Origin: the human T2T-CHM13v2.0 reference genome, Homo sapiens
Length of the DNA: 64,000 bases
Strand: one strand, 5' to 3'
NCBI RefSeq assembly: GCF_009914755.1
Contig: NC_060935.1
In this document: one piece after another, positions 35,488 to 45,700 of the stretch
How positions within the stretch are numbered: position 1 is the first letter of the stretch
How the letters are laid out: each line of letters opens with the position of its first letter
The notes under the pieces: generated by a model
The model's input: only the letters and a program-made list of their open reading frames with translations
Databases searched by the model: none
Told to the model about the DNA's origin: nothing
Translations under genes and position numbers: made by a program

Positions 35488-38400
35488 CACCTTCAAGAGG
35501 ACAGACTCTCTCCTCTGGTTGTTGGTGTCCAGAAAGTGCAGATGAATCACACTAGTCAGTAAATACCCGTTTTCCTTTGAGACATCTGTGTTTACTCTCC
35601 CATAGCTCCCCAGTGCCCCAAGGAGAAAAACTATTTGCTACCATACCCATCAGCGAGCAAACACAAATAGGCTGCTTAATGAGATGCAAGGATCTCCCAA
35701 TCCGCTGGGCATTTCAGGGGAAGTGCTGGTGATACCCAAACTAATGGGGATTAGGCAGAGGTGGAAAAAACTCCCAGAGCTTCCCCTAGGAAGCTGTCAG
35801 TCCTTGTTCTCCTCCCTCTTGTCATGACCACCAAACTGCCATCACTGTCACCACCTCCAGCATCTCCTCTGTCACCACCCCCATTACAACCACTACCACA
35901 CAGATTTTTGAGATTCTGACTGAAAATTGTGTTTACCAAGTAAAAGATAGGGGCTTGTAGGCGCCCCTCTGGCAAGAGAGAACAACTCGTCTCTTGGTGG
36001 TGGGTAACATTTTAACCCCTGGGTTACCAGCAAAGCCTTGTGGTCCAGCTCCCACTTCTAGCCTGTTTGGTCCTGTGATCCATTCATGTTACCTTATAGC
36101 AGGAGGGACAAGGAAGGCAGGGAGAGAAAAGTTCTGGCAGTGCAGGGAAAGTCGCTGTTTTCAGAAGCAAGAAGGTCTGAAATCCTACTAGGAGAAGCCC
36201 TGGTGATCCAGAGCTGACTCCAGGTGTCCTGAGGTCCATTTCACATGGATTTGCTAGACCTTGCAACTGGCTAATTTCTCCCTCTGTGACAGTCTGCAGC
36301 CTAGCCTCCAGAGCTTTTCTCTGGCCTCCCCAGACAGGCTGAGATTGTGCTATTTGGGTAAACAACATTCCCCGCGGTTGTCAGAGACAGACTTATTTAC
36401 CTGGTAGCAGCAGTTCCTTCCTACCCACCTCGTCAGATGCATCAGGACTCAGGGTGGGAACCAGCACTCATCACATTCAAGGGTGGAAGACCCAGCATCG
36501 GAGGGGTGGGCAACAGACCTCACACATACTACGGGATCCAGGGCTGTGTATTGCAAAGTCACATTCACTGTTTAGCTCGGAGGCCTCTCTGGACTTTCTA
36601 CATCTGGGAATAAGCTAGGCTAAAGCTATCATGCCCCAGAGCTGTGATTTCATCCAGTTATCCTATACCCTGCAGCCAAGCTAAAATATAGTCACTATAT
36701 CTCCCTCGGCCATGAGCAGATACTTTATACTTTAAAACCCTGCATGCTTTGAATTCCCCTGACTGCTTAGCCAAGGTGTCATATTGGCTCCCACTATCTC
36801 AGGCAGTGAGGAAAGGTGGTCACTCAATCCCTGCCTCCACAGGGCAATACAGTCAGGGGATGGTGCTCAGCTTAGGAATTCTGCAGTTGTCTTTCTGCAG
36901 GCAGCTCTACCCTACTGCAGTTACTGACCAAGCCATCCCATCCTGCAGCTGCTGGGAGCTGAGTTGGGGCAGGGTACAGCTGTGCCAGCTGTCGGAGATA
37001 GATTACACTATGAAGCTCGGCTGTGACTCACATTCCAGCACAGGGGAAATGCGCAAAAGTTCTATGCTGTCTTTGGGGTGCTAAAAATCATCCTGGCTTT
37101 GTCTTGCAAGATGTTCGGCTTGCGGAGCATGGGGCAGATGGAGGACCCTTCCATCTGGGTCCTCCATGGGGAGGAGGCAGGGGGCAGATCTGTCTCCAGC
37201 CAACTGCCTGTCACACAACTGCCACAGCTACTAATAACAACACTCAGCATTTAATCAGCCCCTTTGTGGATGCAGACGCTGTCACACTCATTAATTAGTT
37301 AATCTGCACAGCCCCGCAGGAGGAAGAGTCATGTTATTATCCCCACTGGGACTCAGAAGGAAACTGAGGCCAGAGTGGGAACTTGGCACAGAGCGGAGGG
37401 AGCACAGCCTGACAGCTGGACTGGGACCAGTCTACGACTTGTCTGTTCTGGTGCCCTCGCTCTTGTCCTCCTCCCCAGCTCCTGTCTGCTCACAGTGCTG
37501 GTGACTATCTCCAAAGACACCTGGCCAAATGCTGTCAGAACTGGGCCTGAAGGTGCTCAGAGAGAAGGCCAGGCATGGCTTTGGCGTGGAGAGGATGCAC
37601 CTCTGGTAGCTGGACCAGGTCAGGTCTGTGGGGAGTGTGTGCTCTGGAACAGCCACCCTTTCTGATATGTTTCTTCCAAAGCGTCTTGGAACTAGAAATA
37701 GAAGTGATGAGGGTGCCCCTCTCTCTCATCAAAATGCCTGTTTCCTGTGCAGGCGGCTCTGGGTTTTGATTGTGTGTCTGGTGGTTTTAGAATGGAAGGG
37801 AGGAGCAAATCCATCAGGAGGCACCATTGTGGTTCCACTGGAAACTGGGACTGGCCATCTGGGGATCTTTGACACACGCAGACACACACACACACACCAT
37901 GGGTAGAACCCACACCCCCGTGAAGGACCTCTTACATCATTGTACCCAGTGGTCGATGTTGCTGGAAGCCTGCTGAGATGCCTTACAGCCATGGCTCAGC
38001 CCTCAAGAAGAAGGCTTAGGTCAGTCTGTCAGGCAAAGAATCCTGACTGAATAAGAATCGGGCAGGAGACCTGCAGAACACAGAAATAAGGCGTTAGAGG
38101 ATGGAATTCGCTAGTACCTTCTAGGAGTTTGTGACCAATTGCAAAAATAAAGACTGCAGTCCCTCCCTGTCTTTCCTTGCTTGTTACTAGAGTTGTTGAA
38201 GATTAAATAGTTGACCATTTCCCCCTTTAAGAAAATATGAATCACAATTTGAAAATGTTTTTGTTATCTTTCCTTTTCCTTTCACCTAACATTTATGTGT
38301 GTATGTATTTTTTTGAGAGGGAGTCTTGCTCTGTCGCTGGAGTGTAGTGGCGTGATCTCGGCTCACTGCAACCTCCGCATTCCAGGTTCAAGCGCTTCTC

Positions 38401-38528
38401 CTGCCTCAGCCTCCTGAGTAGCTTGGATTATAGGCGCGCGCCACCATACCCAGCTAATTTTTATATTTTTAGTAGAGACGGGGTTTCACCATGTTGGTCA
38501 GGCTGGCCTTGAACTCCTGACCTTGTGA

Positions 38529-38999
<471 letters not shown>

Positions 39000-39136: not shown

Positions 39137-39723
<587 letters not shown>

Positions 39724-40354
39724 TGACCGTGGCCTGATCTGGACTAATAAGATTCTTTTTTTCTGGGAATCGGGAACTTTGAACCAAGAGACATCCAGTC
39801 TGGCAGTTTTGATTCTGATTAATGGCAATGATCTAGAAAGAAGATCCCTAAACTGATACTGCTACAGTTGGCCCTTAAAGCCTCCCCTGATCTCTGCCCT
39901 TCCTGAGCCTTGAGGAATTCAACTCCTCCTTGAATCCCCTGAGGTGCCCCACTGGGTATATGCGCCCACTCCTCATTTTCCTTGTTACCTACGTGAGTTT
40001 GCTTTCTAAATAATCACAGGTAACACAGAACTCCTTCCAGAAGTGGCTCCATCTGCTTCAATAAAAGGCAGTCCTGGCCTCACAGTCTCATTTCCAACCC
40101 AAATGTCCACGTAATTTTCAGACCGAGGCTTCTGCTCAAGCCGGGCACCCCACTACCCACACCTCCTTGTTCACCTATGGCTCCCACTTCTACTGAACTG
40201 CGCGATCACTGTGATTTTGGGGGTGGCAACAGGGCCTAGGAAACATTTTAGAGGCACTTCTCTTGCCTGAAAGAAAACGTTCTTCCCCTTTTTGTCTCTG
40301 ATGAATCTTTACTGGATCTTTGGGACCCAGCTGAGTCATCCCGACCTGCAGACT

Positions 40355-40443
40355 GGACTCCCATCCCCAGGCTTAAATTCCTTTCCAAGGGCTCTGTCTG
40401 TCCTCTCGGCTTAGCTTCTGTGTTAAAACCCCCTCCATCTGCG
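40355..40443 (+). repeat. Direct repeat copy 1 (89 bp)
   Basis: ggactcccatccccaggcttaaattcc...ccatctgcg recurs at 42624-42711 with 4 substitutions and 1 indel. Confidence 0.96.
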
Positions 40444-40739
40444 TCTCCTCCCCAGCAGAATGAGCTCCTTGAAGTCAGGGCCCGCCTTCTGCTCCTCTCT
40501 GTGCTCCACTCCCCCAGTTCAGCACAGTGCTCCCAGGGAGGTGTAAGCGACTTACGGTGAATGAAAGGGCGTGAAGGGGAACAGGAGGGGCGGTTTTCTT
40601 CATTTACCAGAAATTCAAAATTGACCAAGTAAACCCCTTTGGAGACCAGGCACGATGCTGGGCACTGGGAACGGGGGTAGGGGTGGGGGGTGGGGGGGTG
40701 GTAGGGAGGAGGGGGTACCCAGGGTACCCACGGGCTCTG

Positions 40740-40888
40740 TCGCCCGTGGGGAAGGATGGGCATTTACCTTTCCCATTCATCAGGATGGGAGGGCCACGGA
40801 CACCCCCCACGGCAGTGCCGGGTAGACCCCTGCACCACACCGTGCCAAGGCCCTTTCTCACAGTCACGCCAGGAACTCTAGCCATGCT
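40740..40888 (+). repeat. Inverted repeat, left arm (149 bp)
   Basis: Reverse complement of 41935-42083 with 7 substitutions and no indels by manual alignment. Confidence 0.97.
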
Positions 40889-41039
40889 CTGACTTCTCAA
40901 GCAGAGTTCAGTCACCCCGAGGAGGTGGGACCCGTCTCTCTCCTCCCCACAAATGAACCAGTTCTCCAGTGATCCTACTTCCTTTTTTCCCTCTCCCACG
41001 CTAAAACTGGTCACGAGGGACCTAAAGGAGGGGCAGGCA

Positions 41040-41700
41040 CCCAGGCGGCTCCCTTCCCCGCACGCATCGCGGCCAGTCCAGCCCCTCCCGGCCGCCCACG
41101 GGACCCCAGCCGAGCCTGAGCCAGGCGCCCACCGCCCCCACGCGCAGGGCCGGCGCCCGCGGAAGACTCGGCTCTCCCTGGCCTCGACGCCGCTCCCCTC
41201 CCTGGCGCCAGGGGGCGCTGCCTCCCCACGACCGTCGCCATGGTCACCGCTGGCGGCGGAGAGGGGTTTACGTAAAGGACGCAGCGTCCCCCGGGGGGCG
41301 GAGGCGGCCTTCGCGCCGGCGCCGGCGCCCTGCGGAAGCGGCGTTAGTGAATCGGGGCCTTGGGGAGCCCAGGATGGAGGTGGCGGTCGCGGCGGCGGGC
41401 CGAGCCCTGCGGCGGGCGGGAGGTAAGGGGGGCCTCCGGCGCGGCGGGCCGGTCCTGGGCGCGGGCGCGGTGCGAGCGGCGCGGCGGGCTGGGCAGTGTC
41501 CAGGGCGCGCGGTGGCCGGCCCGACGGGTCGGCGGGCGGAGTTGCAGCTGCCACGCGCGCCCGTGGCAGGTGTGAGGTCTGTGGAGCCCCTGGCACCAGC
41601 GTGGGGATGGTGACACGCGTGGCACGGGCGTGGGCAACGTGGGTCCGGCACAGGCGGCGTGGTTTTCCTGGAACGGGTCTCAGAAGACTCGCCTCCACCT
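41040..41700. promoter_or_regulatory. CpG island promoter
   Basis: Very high GC and CpG density compared with CpG-depleted flanks. GC box GGGGCGGAG at 41295-41303, palindrome TTTACGTAAA at 41267-41276, CTCF-like TGGCGCCAGGGGGCGCTG at 41203-41220. Confidence 0.93.
41309..41422 (+). other. DAGLA: First (5'UTR) exon, most likely of diacylglycerol lipase alpha; 5' end approximate
   Basis: Lies in the only CpG island and ends at a consensus donor GGGAG|GTAAGG (intron starts 41423). The sequence AGTGAATCGGGGCCTTGGGGAGCCCAGGATGGAGG...GGGCGGGAG matches my recollection of the DAGLA mRNA 5' end. No coding exon is in the window to confirm the name. Confidence 0.72.
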
Positions 41701-41934
41701 TGGTGCGGTGGTGGCCACGCAGGTGTGAGGTGGTGCAGCTGTCTGCACAGGTAGGTGATGGGCACGGCCTTCGGACTGGTTATGGGATAGGTGGCCAGCT
41801 CGTGCCGGCATGGTGGTGCCGCTAGCATGGGTGTGAGGAAGTGCTGCCATTGCTTGGGTGTTGGGATGGTTCTGGCCTTGGGCTTGACATGATCTGGGGT
41901 GATAGCACTGGGGGCTTGAAGAATTGGTGTTCTC

Positions 41935-42083
41935 AGCATGGCTAGAGTTCCTGGCATGACTGTGAGAAAGGGCCTTGGCACGGTGTGGTGCGGGGGGCTA
42001 CCCGGCACTGCCGCGGGGGGAGTCCGTGGCCCTCCCATCCTGATGAATGGGAAGGGTAAATGCCCATCCTTCCTCACGGGCGA
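41935..42083 (-). repeat. Inverted repeat, right arm (149 bp)
   Basis: Reverse complement of 40740-40888. The ORF track shows the shared peptide KDGHLPFPFIRMGGPRTPP on opposite strands. Confidence 0.97.
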
Positions 42084-42623
42084 TGAAGGGGACACTGCCT
42101 CTGTCATGGGGGTCCAGTTTTAATGCCTGTTGGGTACACTGGACTGAGGAGGGCAGAAGGCTGGGAGAAGGTTGGTGTCCTTTATAATGGGCATAAACAA
42201 GAGATGCCAGGAGAAGCTTCTACCACAAGGGCCCTGATGGTAACCCAGATAGAGACCTTCCAGGCACTACCGTTGTCCTGGGCTAAGGTAGAGAGAACCA
42301 TTCATCTAGCTTTTCATCTAGCTTTGGGAATGAAGGGAGGGGTGGATGATTTTCAGTGGTGATCGGTGTCCCAGAATATGTCCTGAGAAGCAAGCAGGAC
42401 CAAGAGGTAACCCGGGTCAGCGAGTGAGGGAGTGGTATGGCGCACCATCTATCTGTAGTCACGGGGTCCTGCCTTCTCCCTGGGTTGATGGGTTCACTCC
42501 AGGGTATCTGGGAGTTGCCTCTCTTCTTTGATGCTGGGGAGCCTTTGGGTCCAGAGGATTGGATCGATTGGGGTATGCTTGAAAGATGATTCTGCAGCCA
42601 CTGGGAATCTGCTGGGGCCACCG

Positions 42624-42711
42624 GGACTCCCACCCCCAGGCTTAAATTCCTTTCCAAGGGCTCTGTCTGTCCTCTCTGCTTAGCTCCTATGTTAAAACCC
42701 CTCCATCTGCG
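42624..42711 (+). repeat. Direct repeat copy 2 (88 bp)
   Basis: Same-orientation copy of 40355-40443. Confidence 0.96.
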
Positions 42712-45700
42712 CTGAGATTGTGTTTGCTCTCACCAGTCCTTTGGGAAGCTTTGGGTGAAGGTCTCACTCAGCATCACCTAGTGCCTTACTTTACAGAGAA
42801 GCAATTTGCAGCTCCTCCTAGAGAAGTCTTACAGTGTAGGGGAAATCTTCAGTTCTTTGTGGATCTCTTGGGGGAGTGGGATCAGTGGTAGAAGAATCAC
42901 AGGGTTGAGCTTGTGCTGGGGAAGGCACTTATGAGTCCAAAAAGATGATGTTGAGGGTAGGGTGGCAGGTGGTCGCCAAATTGCCAAGGTGGGTGCTTGG
43001 AGATGCTGATGAGTTCCCTATAACCGGAGCACTGTCCGATGCCTTTGGAGCCATATCACTTTAATTCCAGTGTTGGCTGTGTGACCTTCAGCAGGTGACT
43101 TCACCAATCAAGGCATGTCACATGGTGGTCTGGTAGTAAAGAATGAAAGGAAATGGTGCACGTGGAAACACTTTGCAAACAGCGAAAGACTGTACAAAGG
43201 TCAGAGAGTCTCATCAAGTAAAGAGACCAGGGCTGGAGGCAGGAGCCATAGGAAATGGTGGCACGGGATGTGATTGGGAGGAAGGGAGCCGGAAGGTTGA
43301 GGGCCTGTCATAGGGAATTAGAGGCCCTGAGCGCACATGCTCCCGGTGGGGGCAAGTGGGATCTGTTGACACTGTGAGTCAGCTGCTGAGCTGGAACCAG
43401 GCCCCCGGTCTCCAGAGGACAGTCCTGAGCATGGCCCCGGCAGCTGTGAAGTCCTGCAGGAGTGGCCCAAGCAGGAGGAAGCACTTTGCTTGGGCAGCAG
43501 ACGTGCCTCATTGCCAGGGTAGGTCTGGGAGGTGTCTGTGGCTGACAGATCTAGGGTACCTGTGTGGGAGGAAGACTTGGGAGGTGTGTGTGTTTTCTCT
43601 GGAGAATTTCCTTTGGCTCTGGGTTCTGAGAACGGGGGTGGGGAGCAGTCACATCAGCGTCTTTTGGGCTGTGGCCTGAAGGAAATGAAGTGGGTCAGAG
43701 CATCCACAGATCGATGTGGCTCAGGTCTGGATGGTTCTGCAGGAGGTTGAGGCTGGATGGCAGGGGGACGGGGGGGGGAGGTGTGGAGGATGCCCTCAGA
43801 CACATAGGGGAAAGGAAAGGGGGCTACAGGCACCTCTGAGGGCAGACAGGTGTGGCACCTCTCCCAATGTGGCCCCACTTCTGGCTGAAGTGCCTTCCCA
43901 GGTGGGGAGGATGAGGGTGGCTGCACAGTGCTTTGCTCTCTGCCACCAGGAGCCTAATTCCCGACAACAAGCTGCAGAGCCTGAGTTGCAGACCCTGCCC
44001 CATGGCGCTGGAAGTCCTGTTTTTCTCTCACCCAGGCCGTTTCTTCAGCATTCCATGCGGGTGTCTGCCTTAGCCAGCAACCTGTTTCACATCCTTGCTC
44101 CCCGAGGAAAGTTTTTGCCCTGTGCCCAGGCTGCAGTGTCAAGCCATGTGGGTGGAAGGAGGACACGGCCCTCCCAGACCCAGGGTTGTGAGCTGACTTT
44201 TCCATGCTATGGACTCGCCCTGTCCCCGTAGCTGCCACGCAGACACTGTCCAGCATTGCAGGTGCTTCCCTGGTCATTCCCATGTTGGTCTGAGGGGTAT
44301 CCATGGCCTGTCTCACCCGCTCCCTGCAGTGCTTCATACCTCCCCCGAGGAGTTGCTGGGCACTTCAGCTCATGTCTGGAAAGCTCTCTTAAGTGCAGAG
44401 TCCATTAAGGAGGAAGCCTACAGCCTCCCTGTTGTGAATATTCAGTATTCAAGTCTCCTCAGCTCACCCTCCACACCTCCTCCTGTTTGTTCTGATTTGT
44501 GGCTCAGCCTTATGGTTTGGGGCTCCAGGAGCCCTTTTCAGCCACCCTTTGCCTTCTGCTTGGGATGCTGGGACTGCCCACCAGAGCTGAGTGGCAGGCA
44601 GGGCAGATCTGAAGACACTGAGAGGAGGAGTTGGCCTCTGTTCCCCAAAAGGAGAGCTGAGCTTTCTTCCCAGTCCTGGGGTTTTGGGGTAGCAGGGAGC
44701 CCAGCCAGGTTAGCACCCTTGTCATTGTGCACAGATGCTGATTTCGAGTAAGTTCCAGCTGAGGCAGGGGGCCAGTCACTTAGGAGTGGACCTCGAGGGC
44801 AAGCAGCTCCCTGGAGCTACAATATTTCAACTCTGGTCCCCAGTCATATTCCCATTTTCCTTGTCCATGTTTCTCTAAAAGTTGCTTTCCTCAGCTCCTG
44901 GCAATTCCTCAGCTGCCCCATAAATCACAGTGCCTGGCTGCTGTGCTTTAGGGGTGCCGGGGAGCCAGGCATCTGTGGCCAGAGGATGCTGGAGCAGAGC
45001 TGACAGCAGCGGGCCAGAAGGCTGCAGCTGAAGGCACAGCTTGTCACTGGAAGCCACTCCTCCCCCAGTCCCTCTCCTCGAGACCAGAGGGGAACCTCAG
45101 TGTTTAATCACCTGTTGGCCCATCACTCTGTGATTTCAATTTCTCACCGGAATAGCTTTACATTACACTCCAGTGGACTGGGCAAGTAGCGCTGGGGGAA
45201 ATATCAATGAGCATGTGGTCAGAGGAAGATAAATCTTTTAGAACCGCGGAGCCCAGGACATTGCAGGATGCGGTTACCTCCCCAGCGGATAGGGCTGAAA
45301 ATGGTTTATTTTGATTTTCTTTTTTTGTTTCTGATACTGACTTGGGCTGGGCGTGGTCTTTCTGGGTTGGATGGGAAGCGTGAGTGTGGGTGTGGACGTG
45401 GGTTGTGTGTGTGGGCAGGAAAGACCCAGGAAACTGCCTTATCTGTGAGGACCTCTTTGCTGCTGAGGAAGGAGTCCAGGGAGATGCCGTGGAGGGGATT
45501 GGTGTGACCACGGGTAAGGGTGTTTTCATGGGGTGTTTGGCAGGAACGCCTAAGTCCTCTAGATGGGGATGGGGCTGTTATTACCGCGGGGCTGCCCGGG
45601 GAGTGCACGTGTGTAAAGTTGCTTGTGCCCATAAGTGTTTCTGTGGGAAGTGAGGGCGGAGGGGGTGTGGAGCGCCTGGTGGTGTGGGAGCGCGCAGGCT

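What the first reader, a model, noticed from the sequence alone, without database searches (positions are those of the whole stretch)
40740..42083. 149-bp inverted repeat brackets exactly the CpG-island promoter and exon 1
Seen: two arms (40740-40888, 41935-42083) with 142/149 identity and no indels enclose a 1,046-bp spacer holding the promoter, TSS region and exon 1. The arms match no repeat family I recognise, and each carries an RBPJ-type TGTGAGAAA and an NFI half-site TTGGCA. The geometry means the pre-mRNA and any divergent upstream transcript would carry the same 149-nt sequence. Inference: this could be a symmetric regulatory element on both island shores, a substrate for inversion that would flip the promoter and exon 1 away from the gene body, a fold-back substrate on unwound DNA, or arms homogenised by gene conversion. 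The arms are short for efficient NAHR, so inversion would probably be rare.
Basis: partly seen in the sequence, partly recalled or inferred. Interest (0 to 1): 0.85.

Follow-up and report, generated by a model that had tools for sequence, protein, structure and literature searches.

The report
Inverted duplication flanking DAGLA promoter
A 149-base stretch occurs twice, in opposite orientations, on either side of the DAGLA gene's promoter and first exon; it is real and found nowhere else in the genome, but it looks like a harmless leftover of an old local copying error rather than a working switch.

Summary
Arms 40740-40888 and 41935-42083 are 142/149 complementary, without indels, 1,046 bp apart. 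They enclose the CpG island (about 41000-41700) and DAGLA exon 1. The arm has only these two copies in the 3.1-Gb assembly, so it is not a dispersed repeat.

Both pairs have razor-sharp edges and the same divergence, 4.7% and 4.5%.

The longest perfect tract between the arms is 35 bp. Rfam finds nothing, and the arms fold no better than shuffles. The named motifs are present but not enriched. A random 200-kb genome sample held one similar locus-unique inverted repeat.

Best reading: a neutral relic of one complex replication template-switch event, probably primate-lineage, that pasted two short upstream copies into intron 1. Promoter inversion, a symmetric regulatory role and gene conversion are unsupported but not excluded. 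Orthologue and population data were not available.

The parts
40740..40888 (+). Left arm (B_L) of the inverted repeat, 421-569 bp upstream of the annotated DAGLA TSS; probably the source copy
   Evidence: 142/149 to the reverse complement of 41935-42083; only 2 genomic copies.
41935..42083 (-). Right arm (B_R), in DAGLA intron 1 (inside the alternative exon 41781-43518); probably the derived, pasted-in copy
   Evidence: The polarity is inferred only by association with the direct-repeat copy A_R and from the structures at the far end of B_L.
40355..40443 (+). Left copy (A_L) of an 89-bp direct repeat lying outside the inverted repeat; probably the source copy
   Evidence: 94% to 42624-42711; only 2 genomic copies. 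GC skew of -0.33 fits its C-rich left flank (-0.22).
42624..42711 (+). Right copy (A_R) of the direct repeat, in intron 1; a compositional outlier, so probably an inserted copy
   Evidence: GC skew of -0.40 against +0.19 in both 400-bp flanks. No same-length flank window is as low as the block (fraction 0.0; the lowest is -0.13).
40889..41934 (+). 1,046-bp spacer: CpG island (about 41000-41700), TSS, exon 1 (41309-41422) and the start of intron 1. GC skew flips sign near 41225.
   Evidence: composition; hub annotation for the exons.
40660..40750 (+). G-quadruplex-type G-run cluster (40660-40715) and a 9-bp-stem hairpin (40727-40735 / 42-50) abutting or straddling the outer edge of B_L; a possible stop for a polymerase copying B_L
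   Evidence: 3 G4 motifs in 39500-43500, two of them here; 4 distinct palindromes with stem >=8 in 2,700 bp, one straddling 40740. Suggestive only.

Best explanation
The inverted repeat is one half of a small, complex, locus-specific duplication. It is not a repeat family and probably not a functional device.

Proposed origin: one replication-based template-switch event, of the FoSTeS/MMBIR or long-range 'four-point' kind, in the primate lineage. My rough estimate is 10-45 million years ago. That event pasted two short copies of upstream sequence into DAGLA intron 1. One is a 149-bp copy of 40740-40888 in reverse orientation (now 41935-42083). The other is an 89-bp copy of 40355-40443 in direct orientation (now 42624-42711).

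On this reading the promoter and exon 1 were never rearranged; intron 1 simply gained 238 bp. Since then the copies have drifted apart neutrally, to about 4.6%.

Shown: existence, uniqueness, sharp edges, equal divergence, no RNA family match, and no long identity tract. Inferred: the mechanism, a single event, the left-to-right polarity, the age and neutrality.
For: Copy number:
- Both repeats have exactly 2 copies in the 3.1-Gb assembly.
- The 3.1-kb region is otherwise unique.

Shape of the duplication:
- Sensitive blastn (word size 7) between the two flanks finds only these two blocks.
- Identity drops to background at every edge. This is what copy-paste of discrete segments predicts, not a decayed larger duplication.
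- Divergences match: 7/149 for the inverted pair and 4/88 plus one 1-bp indel for the direct pair. That fits one event.
- Background density of such low-copy local repeats is about 1 per 200 kb, so two independent events inside 2.4 kb would be unlikely.

Substitution pattern:
- 3 of 7 arm differences are CpG transitions, losses occur in both copies, and the differences are evenly spread. This is the neutral pattern.

Polarity:
- A_R has GC skew -0.40 in a +0.19 context, with no flank window as low. A_L fits its flank.
- A G4 cluster and a 9-bp hairpin sit where copying of B_L would have ended.

Literature:
- Template switching is documented to create new inverted repeats in human DNA (PMC5453318, passages read).
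- FoSTeS/MMBIR is invoked for complex small human rearrangements (PMC6748972, passages).

No sign of a product:
- No Rfam match.
- Arm folds are no better than shuffles, z from -1.74 to +0.25.
Against: - No outgroup sequence could be examined. The derived state, the age, a single event and the polarity are all inferred from one genome.
- Documented short-range template switches involve tens of bases over tens of bases. Here 149 and 89 bases were copied over 1.2-2.3 kb, and the two inserts are 540 bp apart rather than at one junction. That needs four switches.
- No convincing junction microhomology was found: the best is 6 bp at B_L, and 9.9% of 5,000 random placements do as well.
- The G4 and hairpin adjacency is post hoc. 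By my estimate, chance alone gives some boundary inside a palindrome about 20% of the time.
- Neutrality is not shown. The position on both shores of a CpG island is at least curious, and constraint cannot be measured from two copies.
- The genome search uses a loose first pass and could miss copies much below about 80% identity (tool text).
Confidence: 0.55

Rival explanations
1. Two independent small duplications, one inverted and one direct, happened at different times at a locus prone to replication trouble (GC-skewed CpG island, G4 cluster). They are otherwise neutral.
For: The two inserted copies are 540 bp apart, not at one junction. The locus has G4 motifs and strong GC skew. With 7 and 4 substitutions, equal divergence is only weakly informative.
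Against: Low-copy local repeats are sparse: 1 in 200 kb of random sample. Two unrelated events with the same divergence, nested around one centre within 2.4 kb, is therefore a coincidence of about 1% by my estimate.
Confidence: 0.15
2. The arms are a symmetric cis-regulatory or RNA-level element kept on both shores of the island. Examples: paired factor sites, or a shared sequence in the sense pre-mRNA and the upstream antisense RNA that affects early termination or U1 recognition.
For: Both arms lie at comparable distances outside the CpG block. Both keep TGTGAGAAA and TTGGCA within the longest undisturbed tract, 35 bp. By geometry both divergent transcripts would carry the same strand of the arm.
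Against: The motif is not enriched: 6 matches to the degenerate form against 3.96 expected, and 18 of 100 shuffles reach 6. A difference-free 25-bp stretch is expected about 28% of the time (my estimate). There is no poly(A) signal in the transcribed orientation, only a weak 5' splice-site-like GGTAAA (read). No structured RNA. 3 of 7 differences are CpG decay, as in unconstrained DNA. The accompanying direct repeat has no place in a symmetry model.
Confidence: 0.1
3. The arms are the footprint of an evolutionary micro-inversion of the 1,046-bp spacer. A staggered break around the arm, filled in and rejoined after the segment flipped, leaves the arm duplicated in inverted orientation at both ends of the inverted piece.
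For: The geometry is exactly what that model gives: a unique sequence duplicated in inverted orientation, bracketing a segment, with sharp edges. In Drosophila, 17 of 29 fixed inversions carry such duplications, 46 bp to about 1.9 kb long (PMC1885836, abstract and passages read). The four-point template-switch model also has a class that makes an inverted repeat with an inverted spacer (PMC5453318).
Against: The spacer holds the oriented TSS, exon 1 and its splice donor for a conserved gene. Flipping it would have had to create or destroy the working first exon, which is unlikely to be fixed. The model does not explain the direct repeat outside. No outgroup was available to test orientation.
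Confidence: 0.07
4. The arms are older than they look and are kept alike by gene conversion (concerted evolution).
For: Block sizes of 149 and 89 bp are in the range I recall for human conversion tracts.
Against: There is no flanking homology to start conversion. The differences are evenly spread with no long identical tract, the maximum being 35 bp. Both copies have lost CpGs independently.
Confidence: 0.04
5. The arms act today as an inversion substrate, so that some human haplotypes carry the promoter and exon 1 flipped: a segregating loss-of-function 'promoter switch'.
For: The inverted geometry permits it. As single-stranded DNA the two arms pair in the minimum-energy fold.
Against: The longest perfect identity is 35 bp. 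NAHR inversions in the 45-inversion survey used repeats of 654 bp to 24.2 kb (PMC6748972). The 1,046-nt loop makes cruciform or fold-back formation kinetically unlikely (established knowledge, recalled). Three full-text searches found no paper on a DAGLA promoter inversion.
Confidence: 0.03

Closest known systems
Replication template-switch mutations: the four-point model of Loytynoja and Goldman 2017, and the FoSTeS/MMBIR complex rearrangements it generalises
   Same: [quoted passage not shown] One event can involve several switches and can mix direct and inverted copies (PMC5453318).
   Different: Documented short-range events involve tens of bases within one fork. Here 149 and 89 bases were copied from 1.2-2.3 kb away into two sites 540 bp apart. 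No junction microhomology could be demonstrated.
Inverted duplications generated with inversions by staggered breaks (Ranz et al. 2007, Drosophila)
   Same: Ancestrally unique, non-repetitive sequence is duplicated in inverted orientation at both ends of a segment. Sizes are 46 bp to 1.9 kb (PMC1885836).
   Different: Those bracket chromosomal inversions of many kilobases to megabases. Here the bracketed piece is 1 kb and holds an oriented promoter and exon. Inversion of the spacer is untested, and the extra direct repeat is not predicted.
Inverted repeats that mediate recurrent human polymorphic inversions by NAHR
   Same: A pair of >90% identical inverted copies flanking a unique segment.
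   Different: The arms are 149 bp with at most 35 bp of perfect identity, against 654 bp to 24.2 kb in the surveyed inversions (PMC6748972).
Terminal inverted repeats of DNA transposons and other dispersed repeat families
   Same: Inverted terminal copies enclosing about 1 kb.
   Different: Only two copies exist in the genome, both here. There is no convincing target-site duplication. The interior is the gene's own CpG-island promoter.
Bacterial invertible promoters (invertons, e.g. the fim switch; recalled, not searched)
   Same: A promoter bracketed by inverted repeats.
   Different: Those have short repeats recognised by a dedicated site-specific recombinase. No such enzyme or evidence of flipping exists here.

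Membership tests
Dispersed repeat / transposable-element family | Many copies scattered through the genome | tested here: not met
   The 149-bp arm has 2 matches genome-wide at E<=0.001 and at E<=10, both at this locus. The 89-bp repeat has 2 matches. The 3.1-kb region matches only itself and its own arms. Caveat: strongly diverged copies could be missed by the first-pass filter.
DNA transposon with terminal inverted repeats | Target-site duplication directly outside the two arms | tested here: not met
   The flanks outside 40740 and 42083 share no direct repeat. The junction-repeat scan gives at most 6 bp, and 9.9% of 5,000 random placements reach that.
NAHR-competent inverted repeat (human polymorphic inversions) | >90% identity between arms | tested here: met
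   95.3%.
NAHR-competent inverted repeat (human polymorphic inversions) | Arm length and uninterrupted identity sufficient for homologous exchange (observed range 654 bp to 24.2 kb) | tested here: not met
   The arms are 149 bp and the longest perfect tract is 35 bp. The range comes from PMC6748972.
NAHR-competent inverted repeat (human polymorphic inversions) | Both orientations of the spacer found among haplotypes or species | not testable with these tools
   No other human haplotype or primate genome is held (text: no relatives). One scan of genome contigs found nothing.
Template-switch / MMBIR templated insertion | The insert is an exact (at origin) copy of nearby unique sequence, direct or reverse-complement, with abrupt ends | tested here: met
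   two blocks only, sharp edges, sources 1.2-2.3 kb away, one inverted and one direct.
Template-switch / MMBIR templated insertion | Microhomology at the switch points | tested here: inconclusive
   Any microhomology is hidden inside the ends of the homologous blocks. The junction scan was not significant.
Template-switch / MMBIR templated insertion | The insert is absent from the ancestral (outgroup) sequence | not testable with these tools
   No outgroup genome. The only indirect hint is that A_R is a GC-skew outlier in its surroundings.
Staggered-break inversion with inverted duplication | Unique sequence duplicated in inverted orientation at both ends of a segment | tested here: met
Staggered-break inversion with inverted duplication | The bracketed segment is inverted relative to the ancestral order | not testable with these tools
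   No outgroup genome. GC skew is symmetric about the TSS and gives no orientation signal.
Known structured RNA family (including miRNA precursors) | Match to a covariance model, or a fold more stable than shuffles | tested here: not met
   0 Rfam matches at E<=1 over 39800-43200. Arm folds have z between -1.74 and +0.25 on the four strands and copies.

The most novel reading that the evidence does not exclude
The 149-bp arms mark a micro-inversion of a whole CpG-island promoter plus first exon, either in the primate lineage or as a flip still segregating at low frequency. A bidirectional island would then have been turned round with respect to its gene and re-used. That would make it a vertebrate counterpart of an invertible promoter, and it would show that island promoters tolerate inversion in place.
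Probability: 0.06. Interest if true: 0.75.

Novelty: new member of a known kind. Interest (0 to 1): 0.25.

Why it matters
As it stands, this is a clean, datable example of a small complex duplication next to a GC-skewed, G4-flanked CpG-island promoter. It is useful as a case for how template switching shapes promoter-proximal sequence. It is also a caution: symmetric-looking repeats around promoters can be mutational debris.

It would matter more under two conditions. If primate alignments showed the spacer had been inverted, or if long-read data showed inverted alleles, the promoter and exon 1 of DAGLA (the enzyme that makes the endocannabinoid 2-AG) could be uncoupled from the gene by a balanced change that short reads cannot see.

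For read mapping and assay design, the two arms and the two direct copies are near-identical local paralogues. They can misplace short reads, primers and guide RNAs in the DAGLA promoter region.

Tried and rejected
- Rfam scan of 39800-43200 at E<=1: no match.
- RNA folds of each arm on each strand: not better than shuffles.
- Search for further, weaker homology between the two flanks in either orientation: nothing beyond the two blocks.
- Target-site duplication or junction microhomology: at most 6 bp, not significant.
- Palindromes at block edges: one 9-bp-stem hairpin straddles 40740. With 4 such palindromes in 2.7 kb and 8 edges, this is not significant on its own.
- Motif enrichment for TGTGAGAAA / YGTGRGAAM: not above chance once the duplicated site is counted once.
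- A scan of the bacterial and archaeal genome collection for stray copies of a 24-base arm stretch, as a long shot at host contamination from other primates: 0 matches.
- Papers: three searches found nothing on an inverted repeat or inversion at the DAGLA promoter. They were DAGLA + promoter + inverted repeat; diacylglycerol lipase + DAGLA + core promoter + Sp1; and DAGLA + inversion + structural variant (listings only). The library lacks most subscription journals.
- The single-strand DNA fold of the whole 1,364-nt unit pairs the arms, as it must. That shows no more than the complementarity itself.

Full report
**1. Observation**

- The repeat finder reports arms 40740-40888 and 41935-42083, 149 nt, 95% complementary, 1,046 nt apart.
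- A blastn self-comparison gives 95.3% over 149 bases with E=1.6e-63.
- A base-by-base alignment gives 142/149 with no indel.
- The seven differences are 5 transitions and 2 transversions. Three are at CpG sites, two decayed in the left arm and one in the right.
- Forty bases beyond either end of the arms the two sequences are unrelated, so the edges are abrupt.

By the hub annotation, DAGLA exon 1 (41309-41422) and the alternative exon 41729-41750 lie in the spacer. The alternative exon 41781-43518 runs through the right arm.

The CpG-rich block (GC 0.7-0.85, CpG observed/expected about 0.66-1.23) spans about 41000-41700. The arms therefore sit about 110 and about 235 bp outside it. They bracket the island, but not 'exactly'.

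**2. Not a repeat family**

- The arm has two matches in the 3.1-Gb assembly, both here, at E<=0.001 and at E<=10.
- The whole 3.1-kb region 39900-43000 matches only itself and its own arms.
- The tool warns that its first pass is loose and that counts are lower bounds. Copies far below about 80% identity could be missed. Two independent old copies of a family would not be 95% alike, though.
- No RepeatMasker or Dfam annotation was available, and window.fa is not soft-masked.

**3.

An 89-bp direct repeat lies outside the arms: 40355-40443 and 42624-42711, with 4 substitutions plus one 1-bp indel. It also has exactly two copies genome-wide and abrupt edges.

The layout is A - 296 bp - B - [1,046 bp: island, TSS, exon 1] - B(inverted) - 540 bp - A.

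A sensitive comparison of 39600-41300 with 41400-43600 found no other shared block. It used word size 7, relaxed scores and E up to 10, in both orientations. All remaining hits are 14-67 bases long with E>=0.03.

Substitution divergences are the same: 7/149 = 4.7% (Jukes-Cantor 0.0485) and 4/88 = 4.5%.

**4. Background control**

I fetched 20 random 10-kb stretches of the same genome.

I searched these 200 kb plus the window against themselves. I kept same-sequence pairs of at least 60 aligned bases and at least 88% identity whose median hit depth in the 264-kb set was at most 1.

Three pairs passed:
- the two at DAGLA;
- one inverted pair of 72-75 bp at 88% with a 272-bp spacer in L016.

The L016 pair also has just two copies genome-wide. 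Small locus-unique inverted repeats are therefore an ordinary, if sparse, class. The rate is roughly one per 200 kb, with a very wide interval because it rests on one event.

Two such pairs nested within 2.4 kb are not expected by chance. That argues for a common origin or a locus-specific propensity.

**5. Tests of a functional product or signal**

- Rfam gives no match at E<=1.
- Each arm, on each strand, folds no better than dinucleotide shuffles: z = -1.25, +0.25, -0.10 and -1.74.
- TGTGAGAAA occurs 4 times in the window, two of them in the arms.
- The degenerate form YGTGRGAAM (a consensus I recalled) occurs 6 times against 3.96 expected, and 18 of 100 shuffles reach 6.
- The two arm sites are one duplicated site, about 1.1 kb apart.
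- Both named motifs lie in the longest difference-free tract (35 bp). With 7 differences in 149 bases, a given 25-bp stretch escapes about 28% of the time (my estimate).
- Read in the transcribed orientation, the arm has no AATAAA or ATTAAA and only a weak 5' splice-site-like GGTAAA.

**6. Recombination potential**

Perfect-identity tracts between the arms are 9, 19, 32, 6, 16, 4, 35 and 21 bases. In a survey of 45 human inversions, the 24 attributed to NAHR had inverted repeats of 654 bp to 24.2 kb at >90% identity (PMC6748972, passages read).

The even spread of differences shows no recent conversion tract. As single-stranded DNA the 1,364-nt unit does pair its arms in the minimum-energy fold. 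That merely restates the complementarity, and a 1-kb loop makes extrusion unlikely (recalled knowledge).

**7. Origin**

Two documented processes give unique sequence duplicated in inverted orientation with sharp edges.

(a) Template switching during replication. It creates new inverted repeats in human DNA. In its four-point form it can also give an inverted spacer or direct repeats (PMC5453318, abstract and passages). Its larger-scale relatives FoSTeS/MMBIR are invoked for complex small human rearrangements (PMC6748972).

(b) Inversions formed by staggered breaks. These leave inverted duplications of 46 bp to about 1.9 kb at their ends; 17 of 29 Drosophila inversions carry them (PMC1885836, abstract and passages).

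Model (b) reproduces B - S - B(inverted) exactly. But it requires that the oriented TSS, exon 1 and its splice donor were flipped, and it does not explain the direct repeat.

Model (a) explains both blocks with one excursion-prone replication pass: normal copying to 41934, reverse-complement copying of 40888 down to 40740, return, 540 bases of normal copying, re-copying of 40355-40443, return.

Two weak pointers fit that polarity:
- A_R has GC skew -0.40 where both 400-bp flanks have +0.19, and no same-length flank window is as low. A_L (-0.33) fits its C-rich left flank.
- The point where copying of B_L would have stopped abuts a 9-bp-stem hairpin (40727-40750). It also lies 25 bp from the G-quadruplex-type cluster on the + strand (40660-40715), two of only three such motifs in 39500-43500.

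Neither pointer is statistically strong, and junction microhomology could not be shown. If the polarity is right, the promoter itself was never touched and intron 1 simply gained 238 bp. That is also the outcome most likely to be tolerated.

**8. Age**

Pooled over both repeats, 11 substitutions in 237 aligned bases give 4.6%. The Poisson 95% range is about 2.3-8.3% by my calculation.

For comparison I recall genome-wide divergences of about 3% for human-orangutan, 6-6.5% for human-macaque and 11% for human-marmoset. These suggest an event in the ape or catarrhine stem, roughly 10-45 million years ago if the copies drift freely. This rests on recalled rates and on a single genome.

**9. Comparison, novelty and verdict**

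The feature works like, and is best filed as, a templated local duplication, a known kind of mutation. It fails the tests for a dispersed repeat, a transposon, an NAHR-competent repeat and a structured RNA.

Three full-text searches found nothing in print on this particular repeat or on a DAGLA promoter inversion (listings only). The library lacks most subscription journals.

It is a new, tidy instance of a known kind, probably neutral. The bolder readings cannot be excluded without orthologue and population data, which these tools do not hold. Those readings are a past micro-inversion of an island promoter, a segregating promoter flip, and a symmetric shore element. I give them about 7%, 3% and 10% respectively.

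Noticed in passing
window 40660-40715 (+): Dense G-run cluster (two adjoining G-quadruplex-type motifs, including GGGGGGTGGGGGGG) about 600 bp upstream of the DAGLA TSS. These are two of only three such motifs in 39500-43500, and the whole window has 25.
   Followed up: partly
window 41000-42300: GC skew is negative upstream (about -0.2 to -0.35 over 41000-41200) and positive downstream (about +0.15 to +0.46 over 41250-42000), flipping near 41225. This is the pattern of a divergently transcribed, R-loop-prone CpG-island promoter.
   Followed up: partly
window 41385-41540: Four degenerate copies (67-100%) of a 36-nt GC-rich unit (GGCGGG-type) across the end of exon 1 and the start of intron 1; low-complexity island sequence.
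   Followed up: no
L016:1163-1234 and 1507-1581 (G000:C2:7027890-7028308): In the random control sample, a locus-unique inverted repeat of 72-75 bp at 88% identity with a 272-bp spacer, also with only two copies genome-wide. It shows that such small inverted duplications occur elsewhere.
   Followed up: partly
window 38291-38892 and 39300-39606: Three Alu-like elements just upstream of the locus, each with dozens of 75-90% matches across the window. The duplicated blocks at DAGLA are unrelated to them.
   Followed up: no
window 40713-40729: Tandem GGGTACCC-A-GGGTACCC, which is also palindromic, immediately left of the hairpin at the outer edge of the left arm.
   Followed up: no
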